A stretch of DNA of 61,496 nt from a virus. Where the stretch lies: the UHGV virus genome UHGV-1354897, one strand, 5' to 3'. The translations under genes were made by a program, and so were the position numbers. This document shows, piece after piece, positions 15,827 to 26,619 of the stretch. Within the stretch, counting starts at the first letter, position 1. The number at the start of each line of letters is the position of its first letter. The notes below the pieces were generated by a model. That model did not search any database. It was not told where the DNA came from and saw only the letters and a program-made list of their open reading frames with translations.

Positions 15827-16534
15827 ATGAATATTAATCAACAAGCTCCCGAGTCTCGTTCTAAAGAAAACGATATGTATTTAGACGTGCATTCGGTATT
15901 CTCTACCATTCAGGGTGAAGGTCCATTCTGCGGTCAACCTGCGGTATTTGTGCGCCTTGCTGGATGTAACCTGCAATGCCCGGGCTGCGACACGGATTAT
16001 ACTGTTGGTCGTTCTCTTTACCACATTGTTGATATCATGCGTTTAATCGAAAGCCGTAAGCTGGAATCTGGCAATAGCACCTCACTTGTGGTTATCACTG
16101 GGGGCGAACCATTCCGCCAGCAAATTAACCCGTTTATTGAACAACTGTTATCACGCGGGTATCTTGTGCAGATTGAAACGAATGGGTCTATGCCTTTACC
16201 TAAGAACTTTTCCCAGCTACCTGTCATTGTATGCAGTCCTAAGACTTCAAAAATTCATCCTACTGTGCTGTACCGAGCAAACGCATTTAAATATGTGCTT
16301 AAAGCGTGCTGTGTAAACGTGGAAGACGGTTTACCGCTTCAGGCATTAGATCATCAAGCTACGCCATTTATCGCTAGACCTCCGAAGGGGTTCAAGGGTA
16401 AGATATATTTACAGCCAATGGACGAGCAGGATGAAGATCTTAACCACAGTAACATCCAAGCGGTTGTCCAAAGCTGTATGAAACACGGGTACACGTTGCA
16501 GCTTCAGGTTCACAAATATATCGGGGTGGAATAA
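15827..16534 (+). CDS. queE: 7-carboxy-7-deazaguanine synthase (radical SAM)
   Basis: QueE-like N-terminus FSTIQGEGPFCG and cysteine cluster CNLQCPGCDT. Confidence 0.8.
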   Translation: MNINQQAPESRSKENDMYLDVHSVFSTIQGEGPFCGQPAVFVRLAGCNLQCPGCDTDYTVGRSLYHIVDIMRLIESRKLESGNSTSLVVITGGEPFRQQINPFIEQLLSRGYLVQIETNGSMPLPKNFSQLPVIVCSPKTSKIHPTVLYRANAFKYVLKACCVNVEDGLPLQALDHQATPFIARPPKGFKGKIYLQPMDEQDEDLNHSNIQAVVQSCMKHGYTLQLQVHKYIGVE

Positions 16535-16536
16535 CT

Positions 16537-16797
16537 ATGAGCGAAAAATATATGTTTGAAAATCGTCCTATTGATGGTATGACCTGGAACAAACTCCAGG
16601 AAGCTGCTTGTCACGGTGCATTAGTTTGCACTAAAGAGCGCGATGTTGAAAAGGCCGGACCTGTTTATAAACTCCGCGACCCTTGTAATGAAGAATACTG
16701 CTTTGTGTTTAGCGATGAAGCTGAACAGTTTAGTAATCCTTACCGCACCGCTGATGAAGCTGCGGAAATGAGTCGTAAATATGCGGATCAATTATGA
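16537..16797 (+). CDS. hypothetical protein inside the deazaguanine cluster
   Basis: 86-aa ORF between queE and queC. Confidence 0.55.
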   Translation: MSEKYMFENRPIDGMTWNKLQEAACHGALVCTKERDVEKAGPVYKLRDPCNEEYCFVFSDEAEQFSNPYRTADEAAEMSRKYADQL

Positions 16798-16806
16798 GGT
16801 GGAATA

Positions 16807-17019
16807 ATGATCACTTTGGAAGAAGCGAAACAGCATCAGGAAATGATCACTGAGCTGGTAGAAAAACTTAATTCTGCAATTGCTCACGCTACTATGCAGG
16901 GTGTGCATGTTGAATTAGATATTAATCACGTTAGTACAATTGGAGCACGCAATCATCCGATTGTGATGTCAAACGTAACAATCAACCCTTGTGATATTAA
17001 AGGTGTAGAAGATGAATGA
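16807..17019 (+). CDS. hypothetical protein inside the deazaguanine cluster
   Basis: 70-aa ORF. Confidence 0.5.
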   Translation: MITLEEAKQHQEMITELVEKLNSAIAHATMQGVHVELDINHVSTIGARNHPIVMSNVTINPCDIKGVEDE

Positions 17020-17200
17020 AGAAACTGTAATTCTTATGCAGAAAATTCAACGTTTACAGGACGAGTTGAATGACGCTATTTGCCGCGCTGCATCAAAGAA
17101 AATACATTCGGAGCTTGAAATACACCAGCGCCGGGTAACATCTGAAGCGGTGGTGGAACAAGTAGTCATTAACCTCAATATTAGTCTTAAAGGTTTCTAA
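17012..17200 (+). CDS. hypothetical protein inside the deazaguanine cluster
   Basis: 62-aa ORF, coiled-coil-like. Confidence 0.5.
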   Translation: MNEETVILMQKIQRLQDELNDAICRAASKKIHSELEIHQRRVTSEAVVEQVVINLNISLKGF

Positions 17201-17201
17201 A

Positions 17202-17924
17202 ATGAACAAATTAGATAAACTGGTATTCCCTGTAAAAAATCATAACTCCGCCGTTGTGGTCCTGTCTGGCGGTCAGGACAGCGTGACCTGTTTAGGTCTT
17301 GCACTTAATAACTATGATAAGGTTTACGCTATTGGTTTTGCATACGGTCAACGTCACACTGTGGAATTAGCTTGCGCTGAACAGATATGTAAAGAACACG
17401 ATGTCCCATTTGTTGTCTTTGAATTACCTGCTTTGAAACAGATTGGCAATAGCGCTTTAATTGGGAACGAAGGTGATGTTAACGAACATCACGAACAGCA
17501 CAACAACCTTCCAGCAAGCTTTGTGCCAAACCGTAATGCTCTTTTCCTGACTACCGCGCACGCCTACGCGCAGAAAGTTGGTGCCCGATATGTGGTTACA
17601 GGCGTCTGTGAAACAGACTATAGCGGTTATCCGGATTGCCGCCAGCAGTTTGTAGACTTGCTTGAAGCTACGTTAAACGTTGGATATGAAACAGATATTC
17701 ATTTCGTTACCCCGCTTATGCGTTTAAATAAAGCAGAAACGTTTGAGCTGGCGGATAAGGTTGGCTTCTTAACCACAGTAATTGAACAGTCCCATACTTG
17801 CTATAACGGTGTCCGTCGCACTCTGCATGACTGGGGCTATGGTTGCGGTGAATGCCCTGCGTGCAAACTGCGTGCTAAAGGGTACAGTGAATTTATGGAT
17901 AACGCTTACAGCAAACACGTTTGA
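17202..17924 (+). CDS. queC: 7-cyano-7-deazaguanine (preQ0) synthase
   Basis: PP-loop VVLSGGQDS and C-terminal zinc site CYNG...CGECPAC; standalone, no fused amidotransferase domain. Confidence 0.85.
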   Translation: MNKLDKLVFPVKNHNSAVVVLSGGQDSVTCLGLALNNYDKVYAIGFAYGQRHTVELACAEQICKEHDVPFVVFELPALKQIGNSALIGNEGDVNEHHEQHNNLPASFVPNRNALFLTTAHAYAQKVGARYVVTGVCETDYSGYPDCRQQFVDLLEATLNVGYETDIHFVTPLMRLNKAETFELADKVGFLTTVIEQSHTCYNGVRRTLHDWGYGCGECPACKLRAKGYSEFMDNAYSKHV

Positions 17925-18044
17925 TCTTACCGCGAAAACCGCACCGCTAGCGCATTGTTTAGGGTGCGGGAACCCAACTATACTACTAAACCTTTTAAAC
18001 CCAACAACCAGCGAATAACGCTGTTAAAACTGGAGAACAAAAGT

Positions 18045-18524
18045 ATGAAATTTATCGTTGCTTATCTGGCTGCAATTACATTCGTAAACCTGGGCTTTTC
18101 CTACCTTCCAATGCTCAATACGCCTCTTGGCGTGGTCCCGATGATGGCTTTCTTTGTAGGTATTATCTTTGTGTTGCGTGACTACGCACAGCGTAACGCT
18201 GGTAAAGGCGTTATCCCTGCAATGATTGTGGGTTGCATCCTTAGCTGGGTATTTGGGGATCCTGCTGTTGTAGTTGCATCCGTTGCATCCTTTGCTCTTA
18301 GCGAGTTTGCGGACTATGCGGTATACACGATTACTAAGAAGCCGTTTCATCAACGTGTATTTATTAGCTCTTTGGTAGCTGTACCGATTGACTCCATTGT
18401 GTTCTTAAGTATTATAGGTATTGTTAATCCGGGATCAATGGTAGCAATGAGCTTAAGTAAGTTCACAGCATCTGCTATTCTTTGGGTTGTTTACGAAGTT
18501 CATTCACGTACAGCGAGAGCGTAA
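18045..18524 (+). CDS. putative queuosine-precursor transporter-like membrane protein (YhhQ/DUF165-like)
   Basis: Multi-pass hydrophobic protein directly after queC; family assignment from context and general resemblance. Confidence 0.45.
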   Translation: MKFIVAYLAAITFVNLGFSYLPMLNTPLGVVPMMAFFVGIIFVLRDYAQRNAGKGVIPAMIVGCILSWVFGDPAVVVASVASFALSEFADYAVYTITKKPFHQRVFISSLVAVPIDSIVFLSIIGIVNPGSMVAMSLSKFTASAILWVVYEVHSRTARA

Positions 18525-18526
18525 AA

Positions 18527-19114
18527 ATGAAAGATAATTTGAATAAGATTTGGCACCAACACGACGGTAAAGGGATGCCTATTTTTCTTCGTAATGAGAA
18601 GTTTGAAGTTCGTTTGCGCAACGGCACACACGTTAAGAATTTATTAGATGGATGGGATTGGGCTATGGAAGGGCGTTCAGCTATGGATGAAAATAGCCCT
18701 TATAAAGTTCAAGATATTATAGCCTGGCGATATATCGTTGCGGATGATTACGTCAAACAAGCTAGCGAAAACACTCGCTCCGGATTGTACCATCAAGCTT
18801 CTGAAACAAGCATAAGTAATACATTTAATGGTGCAGTTTTTACGAAATATGAACCATCTAAAATTCCCATGAATAAATATCAGAAAATTATTTATGGTAA
18901 AGATCAAAACGGCAATGTTGTAAAGTGCATCGTGGATGTGTATGATGTCTTGGAAGCTTGGAAGACAACTAACCCAGCTTTGCAGCATTTAATTAAAAAA
19001 GCGTTGCAGCCGGGCGAACGCGGTCATAAAAGTCTGGTAGAAGACTTGAAAGATATTATTGCATCCGCACAGCGTGCATTAGAAATTGAACAGTCTAAAG
19101 AGGTATTAAAATGA
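18527..19114 (+). CDS. hypothetical protein inside the deazaguanine cluster (candidate tailoring enzyme)
   Basis: 196-aa ORF between the transporter-like gene and queD; no motif recognised. Confidence 0.6.
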   Translation: MKDNLNKIWHQHDGKGMPIFLRNEKFEVRLRNGTHVKNLLDGWDWAMEGRSAMDENSPYKVQDIIAWRYIVADDYVKQASENTRSGLYHQASETSISNTFNGAVFTKYEPSKIPMNKYQKIIYGKDQNGNVVKCIVDVYDVLEAWKTTNPALQHLIKKALQPGERGHKSLVEDLKDIIASAQRALEIEQSKEVLK

Positions 19115-19647
19115 GCTATACAGTAATTCGTTCACATGAAATTTGCGCCGGACATCGTGTTGTAGGTCACGAAAGCAAATGTCGCCACCTCCACGGTCAC
19201 AACTATAAGTTTCACTTTAAGGTTGCTCCGAAGCATGGATGCGGAAAAGTAGTGACACGAGGAAAGCTGATTGAGGACGGTCTGGACAGCGTTGGGCGCG
19301 TGATTGACTTTAGTGTGGTTAAAACTACGCTCTGCCAGTGGCTAGAAGATAACTGGGATCATAAGTTTCTACATTGGGAAAAGGATATGTTGATCAACGG
19401 ACTGCAATGTTGTATTGAAACGGATACTCAATCTGAACGCGGTTGGCCTACTTTCGGTGAAGGGGATGAAGATCTTAAAGCTTTTAACGATTCACTGGTA
19501 TCTTTGCCGTTCAACCCAACTGCGGAAAACCTAGCTGCATATATGGTTGAAGTGATTGGTCCGCTACTGCTTGACGAACATGGCGTTCAACTTGTAGAAT
19601 GCACCATCGAAGAAACTTCGAAATGTCACGTAAACTATAGCCTGTAA
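19111..19647 (+). CDS. queD: 6-carboxy-5,6,7,8-tetrahydropterin synthase
   Basis: Motif CAGHRVVGHESKCRHLHGHNY typical of QueD/PTPS; longer than bacterial QueD. Confidence 0.75.
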   Translation: MSYTVIRSHEICAGHRVVGHESKCRHLHGHNYKFHFKVAPKHGCGKVVTRGKLIEDGLDSVGRVIDFSVVKTTLCQWLEDNWDHKFLHWEKDMLINGLQCCIETDTQSERGWPTFGEGDEDLKAFNDSLVSLPFNPTAENLAAYMVEVIGPLLLDEHGVQLVECTIEETSKCHVNYSL

Positions 19648-19678
19648 TATGACCACATTAACAAGGAAACTGCAAACC

Positions 19679-20287
19679 ATGTCAAAATTTACTATTAATG
19701 ACGAAAGTATTCAATTTGAAATTACTCGCGCGGTGCGCGCTTTACTAACTCGAATTGAAAATTGCACTGAATTACGTCCAGGTTTGGAAGAGACTCCATA
19801 TCGTGTCGCTAAAGCCTATGCTACATGGTTCGGCGGTTATAATGTGGATATTGCTGGTCTGTTTAAGACCTTTGAAGACGGGGCGGAAGGTTCAAATGAA
19901 ATGGTCATCGTCCGTGATATTCCAGTTTATAGCCATTGTGAACACCATATAGCCCCTATTATCGGTCGCGCTGTTGTGGGGTATGTTCCTAACGGTCGCA
20001 TTGTGGGGCTCAGTAAACTGTCTCGCGTTGTGGATGCTTTTAGTCGTCGACTGCAAGTTCAGGAACGTCTTACTAACCAGATTGCTGACGCTATCCAGGA
20101 ACACCTGAATCCGAAAGCTGTATGTGTTTATATTGATGCCAAGCATATGTGCATGGAGTCGCGCGGTGTTAAGCAGGTATGCGGCAGCTCTACTATTACC
20201 AAAGCGTTCCGGGGCGCTACAGAACTGGAGCATGGTAGCGATATTGGTAAAGAATGGCGCCGGGAGTTCCTCGAAGCTTGTAAATAA
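19679..20287 (+). CDS. folE: GTP cyclohydrolase I
   Basis: FolE signature YSHCEHHIAPIIGRAVVGYVPNGRIVGLSKLSRVV; AAGGAA RBS favours ATG at 19679 over 19649. Confidence 0.85.
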   Translation: MSKFTINDESIQFEITRAVRALLTRIENCTELRPGLEETPYRVAKAYATWFGGYNVDIAGLFKTFEDGAEGSNEMVIVRDIPVYSHCEHHIAPIIGRAVVGYVPNGRIVGLSKLSRVVDAFSRRLQVQERLTNQIADAIQEHLNPKAVCVYIDAKHMCMESRGVKQVCGSSTITKAFRGATELEHGSDIGKEWRREFLEACK

Positions 20288-20304
20288 TAGATAGCTTTAC
20301 AGAT

Positions 20305-20343
20305 CAAGCCCATATCGGTCATAATACTGGTATGGGCTTTTTA
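20305..20343 (+). terminator. intrinsic terminator candidate
   Basis: Stem CAAGCCCATA...TATGGGCTT with long loop followed by TTTT. Confidence 0.5.
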
Positions 20344-20358
20344 GTCATTGGAGGAAAT

Positions 20359-20565
20359 ATGGTAAGACAATACTTTTTCAACGTTCGAGCTGTAGAAAAA
20401 GGTACTTTCAGAGTTCTGTTATGTATGGACGGTATTGCTGAAAGCAGTAACGCAAAACAAATTCATGCGGATCTGCATGTTAGAGTTGAACAGATCTTAA
20501 GCGAGCAATGCTTTAAGAAAGAAAATTATCTCATTGAAGTAGTCGCTTTAAACAACGTGGAGTAA
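20359..20565 (+). CDS. hypothetical protein
   Basis: GGAGGA RBS before ATG at 20359. Confidence 0.55.
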   Translation: MVRQYFFNVRAVEKGTFRVLLCMDGIAESSNAKQIHADLHVRVEQILSEQCFKKENYLIEVVALNNVE

Positions 20566-20568
20566 GAA

Positions 20569-21489
20569 ATGAACGTTTTTATGGCAGCAGTTTACACAAA
20601 CGGATATATGCCCGGGCAGCAGCGCTATGAAAAGCTGTCCGAGCATGAGAAAAATATCACGCGCAATCTGCCCCATATTTTGGAATCATACCACTACGTT
20701 GGACGTCAGAAGTATGTTGATCAAATGCGTGCGGATGGGGCTAAAGTGTTTCTCGACTCCGGTGCATTCTCCGCGCACTCGTTAGGTGCTCACATTGATA
20801 TTGTTGAATACTGCGAATACATCAAGCGCAACAAAGACATCCTTCGCGTAGAAGATGGTGCGGTGATGGCGTCAGTGCTCGATGGTATCGGTGATCCGTT
20901 GCAGACCTACCGTAACCAACTTGAAATGGAAGCACGCGGTGCTAAACCGTTACCTTGCTTTCACTTTGGGGAGGACTTCCGCTATCTTGAATACTACATG
21001 AAGAACTACGAATATATCACCATCGGGGGCATGGTAGGACGTTCCACAGACACGCTTAAAACTTGGCTGGACCGCATGTGGGACAAATACATTTGCGACG
21101 GTAGCGGACGTGCTAAGATTAAACTTCATGCGTTTGGTATTACGTCCACAACCATTATGGAACGTTATCCGTGGTATAGCTGTGACTCTTCCTCCTGGAT
21201 TCAAGCAGCAGCGTTTGGAAGTGTGGTTACTCCTCCGTGGGGCCCAATGCGCGTATCAGATAAGTCACCGGACCGCCATCATTTTGGTAAGCATGTTTCA
21301 ACATTAACTGAAATTGAACAAGACGCTGTCCTTAAATACCTTGAGCAAAACGGTTTCACTTACGAACGTTTATCAACAATCTATGAATCACGTGCTGCCT
21401 TCAACTTATGGGCGTATGGTGTAATTGCTACAAACATTAACGCTACCCATGACGGCACATTCCGTGATCGTGTAATGGAGTTATTTTGA
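20569..21489 (+). CDS. dpdA: DpdA-like 7-deazaguanine DNA transglycosylase (TGT superfamily)
   Basis: TGT-like motif FLDSGAFS; sits directly after folE/queD in the modification cluster. Confidence 0.7.
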   Translation: MNVFMAAVYTNGYMPGQQRYEKLSEHEKNITRNLPHILESYHYVGRQKYVDQMRADGAKVFLDSGAFSAHSLGAHIDIVEYCEYIKRNKDILRVEDGAVMASVLDGIGDPLQTYRNQLEMEARGAKPLPCFHFGEDFRYLEYYMKNYEYITIGGMVGRSTDTLKTWLDRMWDKYICDGSGRAKIKLHAFGITSTTIMERYPWYSCDSSSWIQAAAFGSVVTPPWGPMRVSDKSPDRHHFGKHVSTLTEIEQDAVLKYLEQNGFTYERLSTIYESRAAFNLWAYGVIATNINATHDGTFRDRVMELF

Positions 21490-21716
21490 TGGCTAACTTA
21501 AGAAGACCAAAAGGCAAACGTAAATATACTCACACAGGCGTAAGAATTAATTATTACGGTGAAAACAGAGTAGTATTTCTCCACAAGACACCTAAGCAGT
21601 GGCAGGATCCGTCAGGTACATGGTTTAATGCACAAGGAAAACAAATGGGGCTTTACGGATACCCTCCAACCTGCGAATTAGATTTAACCACAATTAGAGC
21701 AATCGAGGATCGCTAA
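21486..21716 (+). CDS. hypothetical protein
   Basis: 76-aa ORF overlapping the dpdA stop. Confidence 0.5.
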   Translation: MMANLRRPKGKRKYTHTGVRINYYGENRVVFLHKTPKQWQDPSGTWFNAQGKQMGLYGYPPTCELDLTTIRAIEDR

Positions 21717-21952
21717 TGACACCAGTATGTGAAGAATATATTACTTCTCAATCTAAAGCTGGGGGTAAAGCGGTAGGTCGTGTTGCTATCGCTAAGTTAA
21801 CAAACGCGGGCTATGAACCAAAAGTCACCCCGCCTCCCCCTGAGCCCTGGATATGGGAGAAAAACGGGGGTCGTATTATAGCCATTACATCGTATATGGG
21901 ACCTTTTAGATTAAAGATTGAGTATCTTGTAGACTTAGATGGGGACTCCTAA
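21716..21952 (+). CDS. hypothetical protein
   Basis: 78-aa ORF. Confidence 0.5.
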   Translation: MTPVCEEYITSQSKAGGKAVGRVAIAKLTNAGYEPKVTPPPPEPWIWEKNGGRIIAITSYMGPFRLKIEYLVDLDGDS

Positions 21953-22905
21953 TGCTTGACGCTCTTAAATTTGTTCAAGGCTCCGTCGCTAAAAAGGAAC
22001 TGGTAGAAGGGCTTACCAGCTTTCTTATCCGTGATGGGCAGGTACAGGGCTTTAACGGTGTTATTGCACTGGGTAGTCCTATTGAGTTGGATATTGATTG
22101 CAAGCCCGAAGCTGGGCCTATGATTAAAGCTATTTCCAACTGCGATGAAACAGTGCAGCTAACAATGATGGCTAACGGTAAGTTAAATATCAAGTCCGGT
22201 CCGTTTCGTGTTGCTATACGCTGCATTGATAAAGAAACGCCGCACGTATTTCCTGAAGGTGATTTGTACGAAATAGACGGCGCTCGCTTCGTGCATGGTG
22301 TAAAGTCCGTTGCTCCATTTGTTGGGTCCGATGCTTCCCGTCCGTGGGCTTGCGGTATCCTGATTAATAACGGTAGCCTGTTTGCTACAAATAACGTCAC
22401 TATTGCGGAATACTGGTTTGGTAATCAGTTCCCTATTGATTGCATAATACCTTCCGTTGCAATTAAAGAAATACTGCGTATTAAAGCTAACCCGACGCAT
22501 ATTCAGGTTAGCAAGAATAACGTAACGTTTCATTATCCGGAAGGTCGCTGGTTGCGGACACAGCTTATTGATGCGGAATGGCCCGATATACGTCGTATTT
22601 TAAATGTTCAATGCAATGCACATCCTGTTGATCCAGGTCTTTTTGAAGGCTTGCATAAAATTAAACCGTTCGCAGAAGACCGACCGCGTGTATATATTGA
22701 AAACGGTCTAGCCCGTACTCACTATGATGATGCAGAAGGTGCAAGCTTCGTATTACAGGACCGCACTATAACGGGAGTGTACAATATTGACATCCTGCTA
22801 TTGCTTGAAAATGTGGTTAAGACGGCGGACTTTAGTTTATATCCGCAACCTTGCGCATTCTTTGGGGAAAACCTTCGCGGTGTATTAATTGGAGAACGTG
22901 TATGA
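21952..22905 (+). CDS. DNA polymerase sliding clamp-like protein (DnaN-like)
   Basis: C-terminal segment LIDAEWPDIRRIL resembles the beta-clamp segment LVDGRFPDYRRVLP (recalled from memory); placed directly upstream of the polymerase. Confidence 0.5.
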   Translation: MLDALKFVQGSVAKKELVEGLTSFLIRDGQVQGFNGVIALGSPIELDIDCKPEAGPMIKAISNCDETVQLTMMANGKLNIKSGPFRVAIRCIDKETPHVFPEGDLYEIDGARFVHGVKSVAPFVGSDASRPWACGILINNGSLFATNNVTIAEYWFGNQFPIDCIIPSVAIKEILRIKANPTHIQVSKNNVTFHYPEGRWLRTQLIDAEWPDIRRILNVQCNAHPVDPGLFEGLHKIKPFAEDRPRVYIENGLARTHYDDAEGASFVLQDRTITGVYNIDILLLLENVVKTADFSLYPQPCAFFGENLRGVLIGERV

Positions 22906-23048
22906 CAAATGAAGAAACATATAAAGAGGCTTGTGATAAGGTTATACTTTCGCGCTCAAATAAAAACCATAAACCTACACCTGCTCCGGAAGGGTTAAGC
23001 GACGATGAACTTTTAAAATGGTTGGAGTCTTTTAAAGATGAGGACTGA
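22902..23048 (+). CDS. hypothetical small protein
   Basis: ATG at 22902 overlaps the clamp stop. Confidence 0.45.
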   Translation: MTNEETYKEACDKVILSRSNKNHKPTPAPEGLSDDELLKWLESFKDED

Positions 23049-25023
23049 TGCTATTGGTTTCTTTTGGCAGGACTTACCGCCTGAGCCAAAAGCAAAGAAA
23101 GAAAAGGTTAAACGTTTACCGCCGGAGCGCACTTGGGAGCGCCCGGATTATCTGCCAAACTTAGAGGAAGCGCGGAACTTCCAATACAACCTGTATACGC
23201 AGGACGAACTTATTCAAGCATGGATTAACCGCGAACCGCTTGTATACGATATTGAATGTTATCCAAACTATTTCTTAATCGCGTTTCGCGGAGTACGGAC
23301 TAAGAAAGTTGTCTACTTCGAAATGTATCACGGTTGTAGTTTGAATTGCTTGTTACTTAACTGGATAATGACAAACTTCCTTATCGTAAGCTTTAACGGT
23401 AACGGGTACGATATGCTAATTGCTACGCTTGCGCTTAACGGCTGCTCTAATGCTCAGCTTAAAGATGCAACCGATAAGATAATCGTTGAAGACTGGCGTC
23501 CTTCTGATGTGTTGAAGAGTTACCGCCTTAAGCGTATGCAGAACGTTAACCACATTGATATTATGGAAGTTCTGCCTGGATCTGGTGGTTTGAAACAATA
23601 TGGCGGACGTGTACATACTCGCCGTATGCAGGATTTACCGTTCAAGCCAAATACAATGCTGACGCAGGACCAGATGTTGATTGCACGCTGGTACTGTATT
23701 AACGACCTTGTACAGACGGAAGAATGTTTTATTGCATTGCAAGAGCCTTTGCACCTTCGTGAAATTATGTCGCAAGAATATGGTGTGGATCTGCGTTCAC
23801 GTTCTGATGCGCAGATTGCAGAAGACGTAATTAAACACGAAATTCAAGCGTTAACTGGTGTGCGTCCCCAGCGTCCCCAAGTTTATCCTGGAACAAAGTA
23901 TGCGTATAACATACCGAACTTTATTCGTTTTCAAACACCTCTGATGAATAGTGTTTTGGATATTGTTCGCGACTGCCGCTTTGTTGTTAGTGATAACGGT
24001 GGTGTTAGCTTGCCCCCAGCGTTAACAGGTCTTGAAATCAAGATTGCGGACGGTGTCTACCGTATGGGTATTGGCGGTCTGCACAGCTCCGAAGAATGTG
24101 CTGGACATGGTAAAGAGCCAGGTATTAAGAAGCGGGACATTGACGTAACGTCCTATTACCCTTCAATTATTCTTAATCAGGGCTTATACCCCGAACAGTT
24201 GGGACCAGCTTTCCTTCGTGTTTATAAAAGCATTGTAGACCGTCGTATTGCGGCTAAGCACTCAGGGGACAAGAACACAGCCAACACGCTGAAGATCGTT
24301 ATCAACGGATCGTTCGGTAAATTGGGTTCAATGTGGTCTGTATTGTACGCGCCACAATTATTGATACAGGTAACTATCACCGGACAGCTATCCCTGTTAA
24401 TGCTTATTGAAGCATTCGAGCTAAACGGTGTTAAAGTAATTTCAGCGAATACCGATGGTATTGTGGTTAAGTATCCCGACCACATGCAGGACTTCGTTGA
24501 TAACATGATCAAGTGGTGGGAATCCGTCACAGGTTTTGAAATGGAATCCACTTATTATGACAAGCTATACAGTGCCAACGTCAATAACTATGTAGCTGTC
24601 AAAGAACCTGATGCAGAAGGTAACGTTGAAGTTAAGCGTAAGGGCTGGTTTGCCAAGACAGGACTTCAAAAGAACTGTACGGGCGAAATTATCATGGAAG
24701 CGGTATGTGAATGCCTGGCCCACGGTACGCCTGTTTCTCGTACTATACGCAATTGCAACGATATTAGAAAATTCATTATCCTACGTGCGGTGAAAGGTGG
24801 CGCGGTATGGAATGGCGAATTTTTGGGTAAGGTTGTACGCTGGTATTTAAGCACCAATGAAGAAACTCCCGAAATAATCTATGCTAACTCGGGCAACCGT
24901 GTAGCTGGTAGCGCGGGAGGTGTCCCAATCATGACGCTACCGGATAAAATACCGGACGACATAGATTATGATGCTTATATAGCTAAAGCAGAGAAGTATC
25001 TCGAAGACATGGGATACGCCTAA
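23038..25023 (+). CDS. DNA polymerase with family B-like motifs (compact, 661 aa)
   Basis: Exo I-like YDIE; motif A DVTSYYPSIIL; motif B KIVINGSFGKLG; motif C-like SANTDGIVV. Confidence 0.75.
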   Translation: MRTDAIGFFWQDLPPEPKAKKEKVKRLPPERTWERPDYLPNLEEARNFQYNLYTQDELIQAWINREPLVYDIECYPNYFLIAFRGVRTKKVVYFEMYHGCSLNCLLLNWIMTNFLIVSFNGNGYDMLIATLALNGCSNAQLKDATDKIIVEDWRPSDVLKSYRLKRMQNVNHIDIMEVLPGSGGLKQYGGRVHTRRMQDLPFKPNTMLTQDQMLIARWYCINDLVQTEECFIALQEPLHLREIMSQEYGVDLRSRSDAQIAEDVIKHEIQALTGVRPQRPQVYPGTKYAYNIPNFIRFQTPLMNSVLDIVRDCRFVVSDNGGVSLPPALTGLEIKIADGVYRMGIGGLHSSEECAGHGKEPGIKKRDIDVTSYYPSIILNQGLYPEQLGPAFLRVYKSIVDRRIAAKHSGDKNTANTLKIVINGSFGKLGSMWSVLYAPQLLIQVTITGQLSLLMLIEAFELNGVKVISANTDGIVVKYPDHMQDFVDNMIKWWESVTGFEMESTYYDKLYSANVNNYVAVKEPDAEGNVEVKRKGWFAKTGLQKNCTGEIIMEAVCECLAHGTPVSRTIRNCNDIRKFIILRAVKGGAVWNGEFLGKVVRWYLSTNEETPEIIYANSGNRVAGSAGGVPIMTLPDKIPDDIDYDAYIAKAEKYLEDMGYA

Positions 25024-25032
25024 ATTCTACTT

Positions 25033-25057
25033 GCAGACCCTTCGCGGGTCTGTTTTA
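25033..25057 (+). terminator. intrinsic terminator
   Basis: Hairpin CAGACCC-TTCG-CGGGTCTG followed by TTTT. Confidence 0.75.
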
Positions 25058-25087: not shown

Positions 25088-25372
25088 ATGAGCTTAGTAG
25101 ACGATTACAATAAAGGTAAAATCGACGCGGTGGAACTTAACCGTCAGCTTAATAAACAAAATGAAGAACGCAAACAAGGTAAGTACCTTACAATGATTGT
25201 TGCACTTATCTTCACTGTTATTGGCGGATGTGTTTACGGCTACATTAACCACACTGTTGAAGCTGGCAATGAATGTCGCGCTAAATATCCAATTCACGTT
25301 GGTGTAACTCCACAGGAAGACATTGATGCGCTTCTGGAACTTCAAGCCTTATGTCGTAAAGGGAAAGCATAA
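25088..25372 (+). CDS. hypothetical membrane-anchored protein
   Basis: GAGGAG RBS before ATG at 25088; one central hydrophobic helix. Confidence 0.55.
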   Translation: MSLVDDYNKGKIDAVELNRQLNKQNEERKQGKYLTMIVALIFTVIGGCVYGYINHTVEAGNECRAKYPIHVGVTPQEDIDALLELQALCRKGKA

Positions 25373-25905
25373 TGAAACGTTTATTACTCGTAGCCTTGCT
25401 GATAGCGCCTGGTGTCCAAGCTGTGGATTTAAAAGATGCAGCAAAGAAACTATGCCAAGACCATCCTATTAAGTTACAATGTGAAGAGCTTGTATCCAGC
25501 ATGTTAACCAATTCTTACGTGATGGGACAAACGCAGCTTGGATGTGAGTTAGGTATTATTGATGCGTGCAAAGCAGCGCGTACCAATAAACATTTTGAAA
25601 AGAACGCACGTTGGCTGGAGCAGCGCATTAGAACCCTTGATCATAGGGGTACTTTTGGGGGGCTAGCCGCGTGTAAAACCTTAAAGGGGTACATTAGCAT
25701 GGCTGGTAAAGAAAAGAGCGTAGCAAGCGATTTAGCTGCGGATGTAGCAAGTCGCGAACCGTGGCAACATGGTGACAAACCAGTAGTTTACATTCACGTC
25801 TATTACTGGAATAATATGACAGCGGAGCAACAAGAAGCGTTGAAAGTTTTAGCCGACGTTATTGTTGTTCCTGAGGAACCATCACCGGAAACACCGGAAG
25901 CGTAA
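25372..25905 (+). CDS. putative secreted/periplasmic protein with cleavable signal peptide
   Basis: N-terminus MKRLLLVALLIAPGVQA with AxA-type cleavage site; six cysteines in the mature part. Confidence 0.6.
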   Translation: MKRLLLVALLIAPGVQAVDLKDAAKKLCQDHPIKLQCEELVSSMLTNSYVMGQTQLGCELGIIDACKAARTNKHFEKNARWLEQRIRTLDHRGTFGGLAACKTLKGYISMAGKEKSVASDLAADVASREPWQHGDKPVVYIHVYYWNNMTAEQQEALKVLADVIVVPEEPSPETPEA

Positions 25906-25911
25906 CAAATA

Positions 25912-25936
25912 AATACCCGCGTTCGCGCGGGTATTT
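25912..25936 (+). terminator. intrinsic terminator
   Basis: Hairpin TACCCGCG-TTCG-CGCGGGTA followed by TTTT. Confidence 0.8.
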
Positions 25937-26134: not shown

Positions 26135-26341
26135 ATGAATGAATATGTGGTTATGTATTTTGTGATTGGCGCAATTGTTGCAGCAATGACTTATTTCTTT
26201 TGTTGGAATAACTATGACTATGCGCTAGCCCATAAGAAACGTTGGGAGAAGATTGTGGGTCTTCTATGTATACTCGCTTGCTGGCCAGTCACTATTATTG
26301 CGACTGCGTATGATCAATACATGTACAGGAGACGCAAATGA
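26135..26341 (+). CDS. hypothetical small membrane protein
   Basis: 68-aa ORF with two hydrophobic helices. Confidence 0.5.
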   Translation: MNEYVVMYFVIGAIVAAMTYFFCWNNYDYALAHKKRWEKIVGLLCILACWPVTIIATAYDQYMYRRRK

Positions 26342-26619
26342 TGGAATATCTATTAGTTGTCGTTGCGCTATTTCTAATCATTGTTGTTATAATGACCGGA
26401 GATAGTAATGAGAAGGGCTTTACAGCAATGAGCAGGGCGTTATTACGCGCCCTTGCTGTAGCACTACTTGGGACCAGCTTTGCTATGGCGTTTGGGATTG
26501 TAGACATCCCTAGCACCTATTATGGCTTTGTTAAAGTTCAACACCAACTTACTTATGCTACCGTCGTCGGATTGGGTGCTGTAACACTTGCAATCCTGTC
26601 AGCTTTTCATAAGCGTTAA
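26338..26619 (+). CDS. hypothetical small membrane protein
   Basis: 93-aa ORF with three hydrophobic segments; last gene of the rightward block. Confidence 0.5.
   Translation: MMEYLLVVVALFLIIVVIMTGDSNEKGFTAMSRALLRALAVALLGTSFAMAFGIVDIPSTYYGFVKVQHQLTYATVVGLGAVTLAILSAFHKR

What the first reader, a model, noticed from the sequence alone, without database searches (positions are those of the whole stretch)
25372..25905. Signal-peptide-bearing Cys-containing protein preceded by a membrane-anchored protein
A clear Sec-type signal peptide with an AxA cleavage site predicts periplasmic export, which is unusual among replication genes. The position and type fit a superinfection-exclusion factor or a periplasmic enzyme inhibitor.
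Basis: inference. Interest (0 to 1): 0.4.

Follow-up and report, generated by a model that had tools for sequence, protein, structure and literature searches.

The report
Two phage genes fused by one G
The 177-codon "secreted protein" is two ordinary, conserved small Seuratvirus genes (a signal-peptide, four-cysteine periplasmic protein and an unrelated acidic 68-residue protein) joined in this genome alone by one extra G in a G-run; the function of both genes is still unknown.

Summary
The window is a Seuratvirus coliphage genome, about 95% identical to SeppeHuegi, Seurat and CAjan. The ORF 25372-25905 exists and starts with a canonical Sec signal peptide (MKR-LLLVALLIAP-GVQA|VD). The gene before it (25088-25372) encodes a one-pass membrane protein.

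The 177-codon frame is a one-off. Every relative examined has two genes here: 33 phage records, 6 metagenome contigs, 3 IMG/VR contigs, 3 Logan contigs and all database protein clusters.
- Gene A: 89-100 codons, signal peptide plus four invariant Cys.
- Gene B: about 68 codons, with its own Shine-Dalgarno and ATG. It is absent from Hafnia phage yong3.

In the window a G5 run is G6 (25657-25662). This removes A's TAG stop and reads in frame into B.

A's C-terminus is evolutionarily labile; other frameshifted tails occur in SLUR25/63 and in divergent clades. B is frameshifted in viable phage CSP1.

The membrane protein and A are always stop/start overlapped. Both are under purifying selection and carry conserved periplasmic cysteines. 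They most likely form a periplasm-facing accessory pair.

No sequence or fold match supports T4 Spackle, known lysozyme inhibitors or any known exclusion protein. Programmed frameshifting is not supported. Interest is low.

The parts
25033..25053 (+). Terminator-like hairpin plus T-run directly after the DNA polymerase gene. It marks the 5' border of the small-gene cassette.
   Evidence: Scan. The equivalent site is annotated as a terminator in phage Seurat.
25088..25372 (+). Gene 'up94': a 94-aa bitopic membrane protein. It has a basic N-terminus (predicted cytoplasmic), a TM segment at about residues 35-54, and a C-terminal domain of about 40 aa with Cys63/Cys89 (predicted periplasmic). Its stop overlaps the start of gene A (TAATG).
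   Evidence: hydropathy. phrog_26834 covers the full length. Present in 36/36 Seuratvirus records, including yong3. The stop/start overlap with A is kept in Seurat, OddieOddie, STP-SP5, yong3, L011 and L012. pN/pS is 0.14.
25372..25422 (+). Sec (signal peptidase I) signal peptide of gene A, residues 1-17. Predicted cleavage is VQA|VD.
   Evidence: The pattern is kept in all homologues (VQA, VNA, AYA, AFA, ASA). pN is about equal to pS while hydrophobicity is retained, as is typical for signal peptides.
25372..25662 (+). Gene A proper (codons 1-97 of the ORF). The mature product is about 80 aa, 9 kDa, pI 8.45, predicted all-helical, with four invariant Cys (C28, C37, C58, C66).
   Evidence: phrog_23744 matches 1-97/97. 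All database relatives are 89-98 aa. Alignment. AF2 model with five helices, pLDDT 65. Core pN/pS is 0.18.
25657..25662 (+). G6 homopolymer. It is G5 in every relative. The extra G removes A's stop (the TAG at 25664-25666 is now out of frame) and puts A in frame with B.
25663..25698 (+). The former A-B intergenic spacer, here translated as the linker LAACKTLKGYIS. It contains gene B's Shine-Dalgarno AAAGGGG (25683-25689).
   Evidence: A 1-nt insertion is tolerated here in OddieOddie. The spacer carries three in-frame stops in STP-SP5.
25699..25905 (+). Gene B: 68 aa, acidic (pI 4.5), with no Cys, no signal peptide and no TM segment. It is an independent gene with its own start.
   Evidence: phrog_22730 matches 1-68/68. 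Annotated separately in all relatives. Absent from yong3. pN/pS is 0.18. Frameshifted to 59 aa in viable phage CSP1 (PMC13577005).
25911..25936 (.). GC-rich hairpin followed by TTTT on the + strand. It is the terminator-like 3' border of the up94-A-B unit.
   Evidence: and the sequence.
25372..25905 (+). The fused 177-codon ORF as it stands in this window (signal peptide, A, 12-residue linker, B).
   Evidence: The exact 177-aa product is present once in the 15-billion-protein collection, on a 4.3-kb Logan contig.

Best explanation
The finding covers two independent, conserved Seuratvirus accessory genes that one extra G has joined into a single reading frame. The G5 run is G6 at 25657-25662.

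Shown:
- Gene A (codons 1-97) encodes a small protein with a cleavable Sec signal peptide and four invariant cysteines.
- Gene B (codons 110-177) is a separate acidic 68-aa protein with its own ribosome-binding site. That site is intact here, so B can still be made on its own.
- A's last ~10 codons and the spacer tolerate frameshifts in nature, and B tolerates a C-terminal frameshift in a viable phage.

Inferred:
- The extra G is more likely a genuine, tolerated slippage mutation (about 0.7) than a homopolymer sequencing error (about 0.3).
- If genuine, this phage exports an A protein carrying a 12-residue linker and a B domain on its C-terminus, and also makes free B.
- Mechanism of A (export about 0.85): it is translated coupled to the preceding one-pass inner-membrane protein up94, exported by Sec and cleaved after Ala17. 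DsbA oxidises it to a two-disulfide helical protein of about 9 kDa. It acts at the periplasmic face of the inner membrane together with up94's Cys-pair ectodomain.
- My best guess for the job of this pair is to block envelope passage of superinfecting phage DNA or tail components, in the manner of Imm/Sp or HK97 gp15 (about 0.25-0.3). Lysis-timing control or another envelope or host-takeover role is about as likely in aggregate.
- The 177-aa protein is not a designed bifunctional secreted protein.
For: Fusion by one base:
- Pairwise alignment with Seurat shows a single-G difference. Seurat has a 97-aa and a 68-aa ORF.
- Fifteen loci were parsed directly: all are G5 and split, and only the window is G6.
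- A 71-nt junction query found 0 of 33 phage records identical. Thirty align over 70 nt, OddieOddie over 71 (G5 plus an extra spacer A), and SLUR25/63 over 69.
- All 6 metagenome matches have the G5 length.
- tblastn shows two frames in 32 records.
- PHROGs splits the ORF into two families.
- All A-family clusters are 89-98 aa.

Independence of A and B:
- yong3 has up94 and A but no B.
- STP-SP5 has three stops between A and B.
- B's SD and ATG are conserved.

The genes are real: pN/pS is 0.14 for up94, 0.18 for the A core and 0.18 for B.

Labile ends:
- SLUR25/63 have G4 reduced to G3, giving a 100-aa A.
- Divergent clades end A at ...NP or ...KP.
- The A tail has pN about equal to pS.
- CSP1's B is frameshifted yet growth is normal (PMC13577005).

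The G6 is probably genuine:
- The other eight 1-nt homopolymer indels relative to SeppeHuegi are all intergenic.
- Only 9 of 145 coding homopolymer runs lie within 5 codons of a stop, so a random error would rarely land there.
- The identical 177-aa product occurs in a Logan assembly.

Export and pairing:
- Signal-peptide anatomy and hydropathy.
- Invariant Cys.
- up94's stop overlaps A's start in every clade.
Against: - No experiment shows export, a disulfide, an up94-A interaction or any phenotype.
- The A model is of low confidence (pLDDT 65), and no fold or sequence relative with a known function was found. The functional part is therefore analogy only.
- The expected exclusion lipoprotein of these phages is encoded elsewhere (PMC8594841).
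- Lysis suppression in a Seuratvirus maps to other genes (PMC13577005).
- I could not inspect reads, so a homopolymer error at 25657-25662 is not excluded. The Logan contig may come from the same data.
Confidence: 0.8

Rival explanations
1. Sequencing or assembly artefact. The phage really has G5, and the extra G at 25657-25662 is a homopolymer miscall. The genome would then carry the normal separate genes A and B, and no fused protein exists.
For: The G6 state is unique among all relatives examined: 0/33 phage records, 0/6 metagenome contigs, 0/3 IMG/VR and 0/3 Logan contigs. It sits in a homopolymer, the classic site of such errors.
Against: The rest of the 61-kb window shows no other coding frameshift against SeppeHuegi; the other eight 1-nt homopolymer indels are all intergenic. 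A random error would hit one of the 136 mid-gene coding runs far more often than one of the 9 near a stop. An identical 177-aa product is on record from a Logan assembly. Natural 1-nt indels in the same cassette are documented in SLUR25/63, OddieOddie and CSP1.
Confidence: 0.3
2. Programmed recoding. In the common G5 phages a -1 ribosomal frameshift or polymerase slippage on TTTTGGGGG would make an A-B fusion in addition to A and B. The window would then be a hard-wired fused allele of a functional two-form system.
For: In the E. coli clade and in L011, B's frame is -1 relative to A and is open back across A's stop. The T4G5 tract followed by a stop codon could pause ribosomes. The A tail and spacer block is unusually conserved at nucleotide level, with pi about 0.03 against pS about 0.2 in the flanks.
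Against: - There is no X XXY YYZ heptamer in A's frame (ACT TTT GGG GGC TAG).
- G5 is too short for known transcriptional slippage.
- OddieOddie's extra spacer base and STP-SP5's three stops break any fusion frame.
- yong3 lacks B altogether.
- B always keeps its own SD and ATG.
- The consensus RNA fold has no compensatory pair.
- An open spacer of 11-19 codons is expected by chance about 40-60% of the time.
Confidence: 0.04
3. A single 177-aa secreted, Cys-containing protein is the functional unit, and it acts as a periplasmic lysozyme or enzyme inhibitor or a Spackle-type exclusion factor.
For: The ORF is continuous in this window and starts with a good signal peptide. T4 Spackle is likewise a 97-aa precursor giving a small helical disulfide-bonded periplasmic protein (PMC7677548). 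This resembles the A part.
Against: - The single-ORF state is found only here.
- There is no sequence or fold similarity to Spackle, Ivy, MliC/PliC or any solved structure.
- Mature A is basic (pI 8.45), whereas Spackle docks onto a strongly basic lysozyme surface (PMC7677548).
Confidence: 0.03
4. up94 and A regulate lysis timing as an antiholin or spanin modulator, rather than excluding other phages.
For: A membrane-anchored protein plus a periplasmic protein is the architecture of several lysis regulators (T4 RI/RIII, P1 LydB). Seuratvirus CSP1 shows lysis suppression, and its authors suspect further factors (PMC13577005).
Against: In CSP1 the minimal lysis-suppression set is CSP1_020-022. 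These are the lateral tail fibre, a 235-aa one-TM protein and a 122-aa protein; up94 and A are not part of it (PMC13577005). A's hydrophobic stretch of about 12 residues is too short for a signal-anchor-release domain. The lysis cassette is about 25 kb away.
Confidence: 0.12

Closest known systems
T4 Spackle (Sp, gp61.3) together with Imm: a superinfection-exclusion pair
   Same: Sp is a 97-aa precursor whose signal is cleaved to give a helical, disulfide-bonded periplasmic protein of about 75 aa. It works alongside a small inner-membrane protein, Imm. Here gene A is a 97-aa precursor giving a predicted helical Cys-rich protein of about 80 aa, encoded next to a small membrane protein (PMC7677548).
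   Different: There is no detectable sequence or fold similarity. A has four Cys rather than two and is basic rather than acidic. up94 has one TM segment, not the Imm topology. No tail lysozyme target was identified. The host phage is a siphovirus.
Cor / Llp-type receptor-blocking lipoproteins of T1/T5-like and small siphoviruses
   Same: These are small exported proteins made by lytic siphoviruses to protect the infected cell or its debris from further adsorption.
   Different: They are lipoproteins with a lipobox Cys and are encoded beside the receptor-binding genes (PMC8594841; Seurat gp20). A has no lipobox and lies after the polymerase gene.
Inner-membrane injection blockers (P22 SieA, HK97 gp15)
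   Same: up94 is a small phage-encoded inner-membrane protein with a periplasmic domain, the general design of proteins that stop incoming DNA at the inner membrane (PMC10883804 for SieA; HK97 gp15 from general knowledge).
   Different: There is no homology. Those systems are prophage-expressed single proteins. Here the phage is a virulent one and the protein has a secreted partner.
Twin CX9C (CHCH) / small-Tim type helical hairpins
   Same: Two CXnC pairs (C28-x8-C37 and C58-x7-C66) lie on predicted helices in an oxidising compartment. The remote relatives P0039-P0041 keep the pattern of a signal peptide, then CX9-11C, a gap, and CX9-18C.
Homopolymer-indel gene fusions or splits in phage genomes (ordinary slippage mutations or sequencing errors)
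   Same: A 1-nt change in a G-run moves a stop codon. Sibling events occur in the same cassette in SLUR25/63, OddieOddie and CSP1/CSP1C (PMC13577005).
   Different: Here the shift happens to run exactly into the next gene's frame, creating a signal-peptide fusion.

Membership tests
Sec-dependent, signal-peptidase-I-cleaved secretory proteins | Tripartite N-terminal signal: a positively charged n-region, a hydrophobic h-region of 7-15 residues, and a c-region with small or neutral residues at -3 and -1 | tested here: met
   MKR / LLLVALLIAP / GVQA|VD. Maximum hydropathy is 2.4 at residues 4-18. The same layout is seen in all 8 family representatives.
Sec-dependent, signal-peptidase-I-cleaved secretory proteins | Not a lipoprotein (no lipobox Cys at +1), not Tat (no twin arginine), and not a long TM anchor | tested here: met
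   The first Cys is residue 28. There is no RR motif. The hydrophobic stretch is about 12 residues.
Sec-dependent, signal-peptidase-I-cleaved secretory proteins | Demonstrated export and cleavage | not testable with these tools
   This needs PhoA fusions, fractionation or N-terminal sequencing.
T4 Spackle (Sp) superinfection-exclusion proteins | Sequence homology to Sp | tested here: not met
   phmmer against all PDB chains (which include the Spackle structures) gave 0 hits at E<=10. The PHROG hits are only two unannotated families plus weak signal-peptide-level matches.
T4 Spackle (Sp) superinfection-exclusion proteins | The flat helical-bundle fold of Spackle | tested here: inconclusive
T4 Spackle (Sp) superinfection-exclusion proteins | Binds and inhibits the tail-associated lysozyme of the same phage group | not tested
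   No tail muramidase was sought in this genome. A biochemical assay is needed.
Periplasmic lysozyme inhibitors (Ivy, MliC/PliC and relatives) | Match to the family profile | tested here: not met
   Pfam-A scan at E<=1 gave only two sub-threshold unrelated hits, IMPa_N_2 and DUF5053. NCBIfam gave none. A is predicted all-helical.
Cor/Llp-type exclusion lipoproteins | Lipobox with Cys at +1, and a location beside the receptor-binding genes | tested here: not met
   There is no lipobox. The gene follows the DNA polymerase gene. The 'putative lipoprotein' moron is between the tail-fibre genes in Seurat.
Programmed -1 ribosomal frameshift sites | A slippery X XXY YYZ heptamer in the upstream frame | tested here: not met
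   In G5 relatives A's frame reads ACT TTT GGG GGC TAG. No heptamer of that form is present.
Programmed -1 ribosomal frameshift sites | The frame relation and the open overlap are conserved across relatives | tested here: not met
   OddieOddie and STP-SP5 have B in A's own frame behind one or three stops. yong3 lacks B.
Programmed -1 ribosomal frameshift sites | A downstream stimulatory RNA structure supported by covariation | tested here: not met
   RNAalifold gave 26 pairs with 0 compensatory changes and a covariation term of +1.5.
T4 RI-type antiholins | An N-terminal signal-anchor-release TM domain, and a genetic link to lysis inhibition | tested here: not met
   The hydrophobic stretch is too short for a TM segment. 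Seuratvirus lysis suppression maps to CSP1_020-022 (PMC13577005).

The most novel reading that the evidence does not exclude
The conserved ~65-nt block holding two G-runs (25646-25649 and 25657-25662) could be a slippage-prone switch. It would let Seuratviruses toggle gene A's C-terminus between three natural states: 97 aa; 100 aa in SLUR25/63; and a 177-aa signal-peptide-A-B fusion here that carries B into the periplasm. Alternatively it could allow low-level -1 frameshifting to the fusion in G5 phages. Either way this would be phase-variable or recoded dual localisation of an accessory protein in a virulent phage.
Probability: 0.04. Interest if true: 0.55.

Novelty: new member of a known kind. 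Interest (0 to 1): 0.17.

Why it matters
Mostly as a correction. The "177-aa secreted protein" should not be carried forward as a gene model, because it is two already-catalogued hypothetical gene families (phrog_23744 and phrog_22730) joined by one base.

What remains of modest interest is a genus-specific, translationally coupled pair: a one-pass membrane protein and a secreted four-Cys protein. The pair is under purifying selection in all Seuratviruses and has no recognisable relatives or fold. It is a tractable candidate for a new envelope-level phage function such as exclusion, injection block or lysis control, and the BASEL Seuratvirus isolates make it directly testable.

The naturally occurring fusion allele and the frameshifted tails also show which parts of A and B tolerate change.

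Tried and rejected
- Homology. Pfam, PHROGs, NCBIfam and PADLOC scans of A, B, up94 and the three downstream small ORFs gave only unannotated PHROGs and sub-threshold noise. phmmer of A and B against PDB sequences gave nothing.
- Deeper searches. Word-indexed searches of 5.8 billion proteins, with a single sequence and with a profile, and a full HMMER profile search of 1.84 billion representatives found a tiny family: 7 clusters, 3 strong representatives and 3 weak hits of 88-109 aa with the same Cys pattern, none with a name. The B family is equally narrow.
- Programmed frameshift or RNA element. This was rejected on frame relations in OddieOddie, STP-SP5 and yong3 and on the lack of covariation.
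- Promoter in the conserved junction block. No sigma-70 match was found and the motif is unique in the genome.
- Logan contig. I tried to retrieve the contig that carries the identical 177-aa product; it is not on record in the position index. L010, which shares the identical up94 protein, is a different strain (95% identity) with G5.
- Literature. No paper assigns a function to these genes. The CSP1 paper maps lysis suppression elsewhere but documents a frameshift in B.

Full report
**What the window is.** The region around the finding is 93-96% identical to about 34 Escherichia phages of the genus Seuratvirus (Queuovirinae), including SeppeHuegi, KurtStettler, Seurat and CAjan. A whole-window blastn against SeppeHuegi is collinear over nearly the whole genome. 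The finding lies just downstream of the family-B DNA polymerase gene (23038-25023; phrog_1252).

**Check of the observation.**
- An ATG-to-TAA ORF of 177 codons is present at 25372-25905 on the + strand.
- Its first 17 residues, MKR-LLLVALLIAP-GVQA, followed by VD, form a textbook signal-peptidase-I signal. There is no lipobox and no twin arginine.
- The preceding ORF starts at ATG 25088 behind AAGAGGAG and encodes 94 aa. It has a basic N-terminus, one strongly hydrophobic segment at about residues 35-54, and a tail of about 40 residues with two Cys. Its TAA overlaps the finding's ATG.

**The ORF is two genes.**
- PHROGs matches residues 1-97 end-to-end to one 97-position family (phrog_23744, E=1e-64). 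It matches residues 110-177 end-to-end to a different 68-position family (phrog_22730, E=2e-47).
- In phage Seurat the same DNA is annotated as gp28 (97 aa) and gp27 (68 aa), each with its own ribosome-binding site.
- The pairwise alignment shows why: Seurat reads ACTTTTGGGGGCTAG and the window reads ACTTTTGGGGGGCTAG.
- With G5, gene A ends ...T-F-G-G-TAG. After a 32-nt spacer that contains AAAGGGG, gene B starts at ATG.
- With G6 (25657-25662) the TAG (25664-25666) falls out of frame. The spacer is read as LAACKTLKGYIS, and A runs in frame into B's ATG (25699).

**How general the split state is.**
- tblastn with the 177-aa product hits 36 phage records. In 32 the match is in two frames spanning 496-497 nt, against 498 here. 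In OddieOddie and STP-SP5 it is in one frame but crosses stop codons.
- A 71-nt junction query found no identical record among 33. Thirty align over 70 nt; OddieOddie over 71 (G5 plus an extra A in the spacer's A-run); SLUR25/63 over 69.
- A pattern allowing either run length found 6 metagenome contigs, all with the G5 length.
- Direct parsing of 15 loci gave G5 and two ORFs in every one.
- All protein clusters related to A in 5.8 billion sequences are 89-98 aa.
- The exact 177-aa product occurs once, on a 4.3-kb Logan contig, which I could not retrieve.

**A and B are independent genes.**
- Hafnia phage yong3 has up94 and A (31% identity, same four Cys), but the next gene is the homologue of the window's 61-aa ORF. 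B is absent.
- STP-SP5 has three stops between A and B.
- B always keeps its SD and ATG.
- All three genes are under purifying selection: pN/pS is 0.14 for up94, 0.18 for the A core and 0.18 for B.

**Labile ends.**
- A's C-terminus is not constrained as protein. The divergent clades (STP-SP5, L011, L012, P0037) end at ...NP or ...KP, using the TGA in CCTTGATC.
- The E. coli clade reads 8 codons further. SLUR25/63 carry a G4-to-G3 change that gives a 100-aa variant ending ...LDHRVLLGASRV.
- Codons 88-97 have pN about equal to pS.
- B is frameshifted after codon 44 in Cronobacter/E. coli phage CSP1 (59 aa). This is the 'CSP1_029' of Kim & Ryu 2025. Its derivative CSP1C has lost that base and regained the 68-aa form, with unchanged adsorption, latent period and burst size (PMC13577005). 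Single-base indels in this cassette are therefore recurrent and tolerated.

**Real mutation or error?** I cannot see reads. Three points favour a genuine allele:
- The other eight 1-nt homopolymer differences from SeppeHuegi are all intergenic, so the assembly is not littered with frameshifts.
- Of the 169 homopolymer runs of 5 or more in the window, 145 are coding and only 9 lie within five codons of a stop. A random miscall would rarely land in such a harmless place, whereas selection would leave exactly such mutations.
- The same product appears in a Logan assembly, though that may come from the same data.

I put genuine at about 0.7 and error at about 0.3. Either way B's own initiation region is intact.

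**Recoding considered and rejected.**
- In the E. coli clade and in L011, B's frame is -1 relative to A and is open across A's stop.
- Against this, there is no X XXY YYZ heptamer, and G5 is too short for transcriptional slippage.
- OddieOddie, STP-SP5 and yong3 break the relation.
- The consensus RNA fold has no compensatory pair.
- I give this about 0.04.

**What A and up94 may do.**
- The mature A is about 80 aa, 9 kDa, pI 8.45. It is predicted to have five helices, at low confidence (pLDDT 65). C28-x8-C37 and C58-x7-C66 are invariant.
- up94's C-terminal Cys pair is also conserved in yong3, STP-SP5 and L011.
- In every clade up94's stop overlaps A's start.
- The unit up94-A-B is bracketed by terminator-like hairpins at 25033-25053 and 25911-25936.
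- Two of the next three small ORFs have 2-3 TM segments.
- The simplest reading is a translationally coupled membrane-anchor plus secreted-partner pair acting at the periplasmic face of the inner membrane.

**No link to a known function.**
- No Pfam, NCBIfam, PADLOC or PDB sequence hit was found.
- No fold match was found in the PDB or BFVD.
- The family is confined to Seuratvirus, plus a few weak signal-peptide/CXnC look-alikes.
- T4 Spackle is the closest analogue by architecture: a 97-aa precursor giving a helical, disulfide-bonded periplasmic protein of 75 aa (PMC7677548). Membership fails on sequence, and A is basic.
- The receptor-blocking lipoprotein of these phages is encoded by the tail-fibre genes (PMC8594841).
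- Seuratvirus lysis suppression maps to CSP1_020-022 (PMC13577005).
- I therefore commit only weakly, at about 0.25-0.3, to an injection-blocking or exclusion role for up94 plus A.

**Verdict.** The underlying genes are ordinary, already-annotated hypothetical proteins. The fused ORF is a one-base curiosity. Interest is low.

Noticed in passing
window 25633-25698: A ~65-nt block (A's last codons plus the A-B spacer) varies far less than neighbouring synonymous sites: pi is about 0.03 against pS of about 0.2. It is still recognisable in divergent clades, where it is wholly intergenic. It contains AGGGGTAC twice. No promoter match was found, there is no covarying RNA structure, and the motif is unique in the genome. 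Its function is unexplained.
   Followed up: partly
L019 (phage SLUR25, LT907986) 675-705; equivalent to window 25646-25649: SLUR25 and SLUR63 have G3 instead of G4 in the upstream G-run. This frameshifts gene A's tail to give a 100-aa variant, a second natural indel allele at this junction.
   Followed up: yes
L020 (phage CSP1, KY982929) 33-212; equivalent to window 25699-25905: Gene B carries an extra A after codon 44 in CSP1 (59 aa). This is the 'CSP1_029' of PMC13577005. Its clear-plaque derivative CSP1C lost the base and regained the 68-aa consensus with no change in growth parameters.
   Followed up: yes
window 27686-28054 (-) and 28126-28962 (-): These minus-strand ORFs match in size and position CSP1_022 (122 aa) and CSP1_021 (a one-TM protein of about 235 aa). 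Together with the lateral tail fibre, those genes were shown to suppress lysis by acting on the holin in Seuratvirus CSP1 (PMC13577005). They lie only about 2-3 kb from the finding. Homology was not checked directly.
   Followed up: partly
window 26135-26341 and 26338-26619 (+): Two further small conserved ORFs have 2 and 3 predicted TM segments (phrog_23919, phrog_15669; function unknown). Four of the six small genes after the polymerase terminator are therefore envelope-targeted.
   Followed up: partly
window 29011-34876: The tail-fibre and receptor-binding region is the main stretch that does not align, or aligns at only about 73%, with SeppeHuegi. This suggests a different receptor-binding module.
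   Followed up: no
window 16000-22900: By comparison with the Seurat and SeppeHuegi annotation, the genes upstream of the polymerase are the 7-deazaguanine (dPreQ0) DNA-modification set (FolE, QueD, QueC, QueE, DpdA). This is the hallmark of Queuovirinae.
   Followed up: no
L005 3461-3652, L011 1965-2156, L012 940-1131: The divergent Seuratvirus clades carry an extra 63-codon ORF overlapping the end of the polymerase gene, ahead of up94. It is absent from the E. coli clade and from the window.
   Followed up: no
phage records MH230177 (Aeromonas phage SD04) and KY982929 (Cronobacter phage CSP1): The junction cassette of SD04 is about 93% identical to that of the E. coli Seuratviruses, and CSP1's up94 and A proteins are about 96% identical to the window's. 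The CSP1 paper itself works in E. coli, so the host labels may not reflect a real difference in host range.
   Followed up: no
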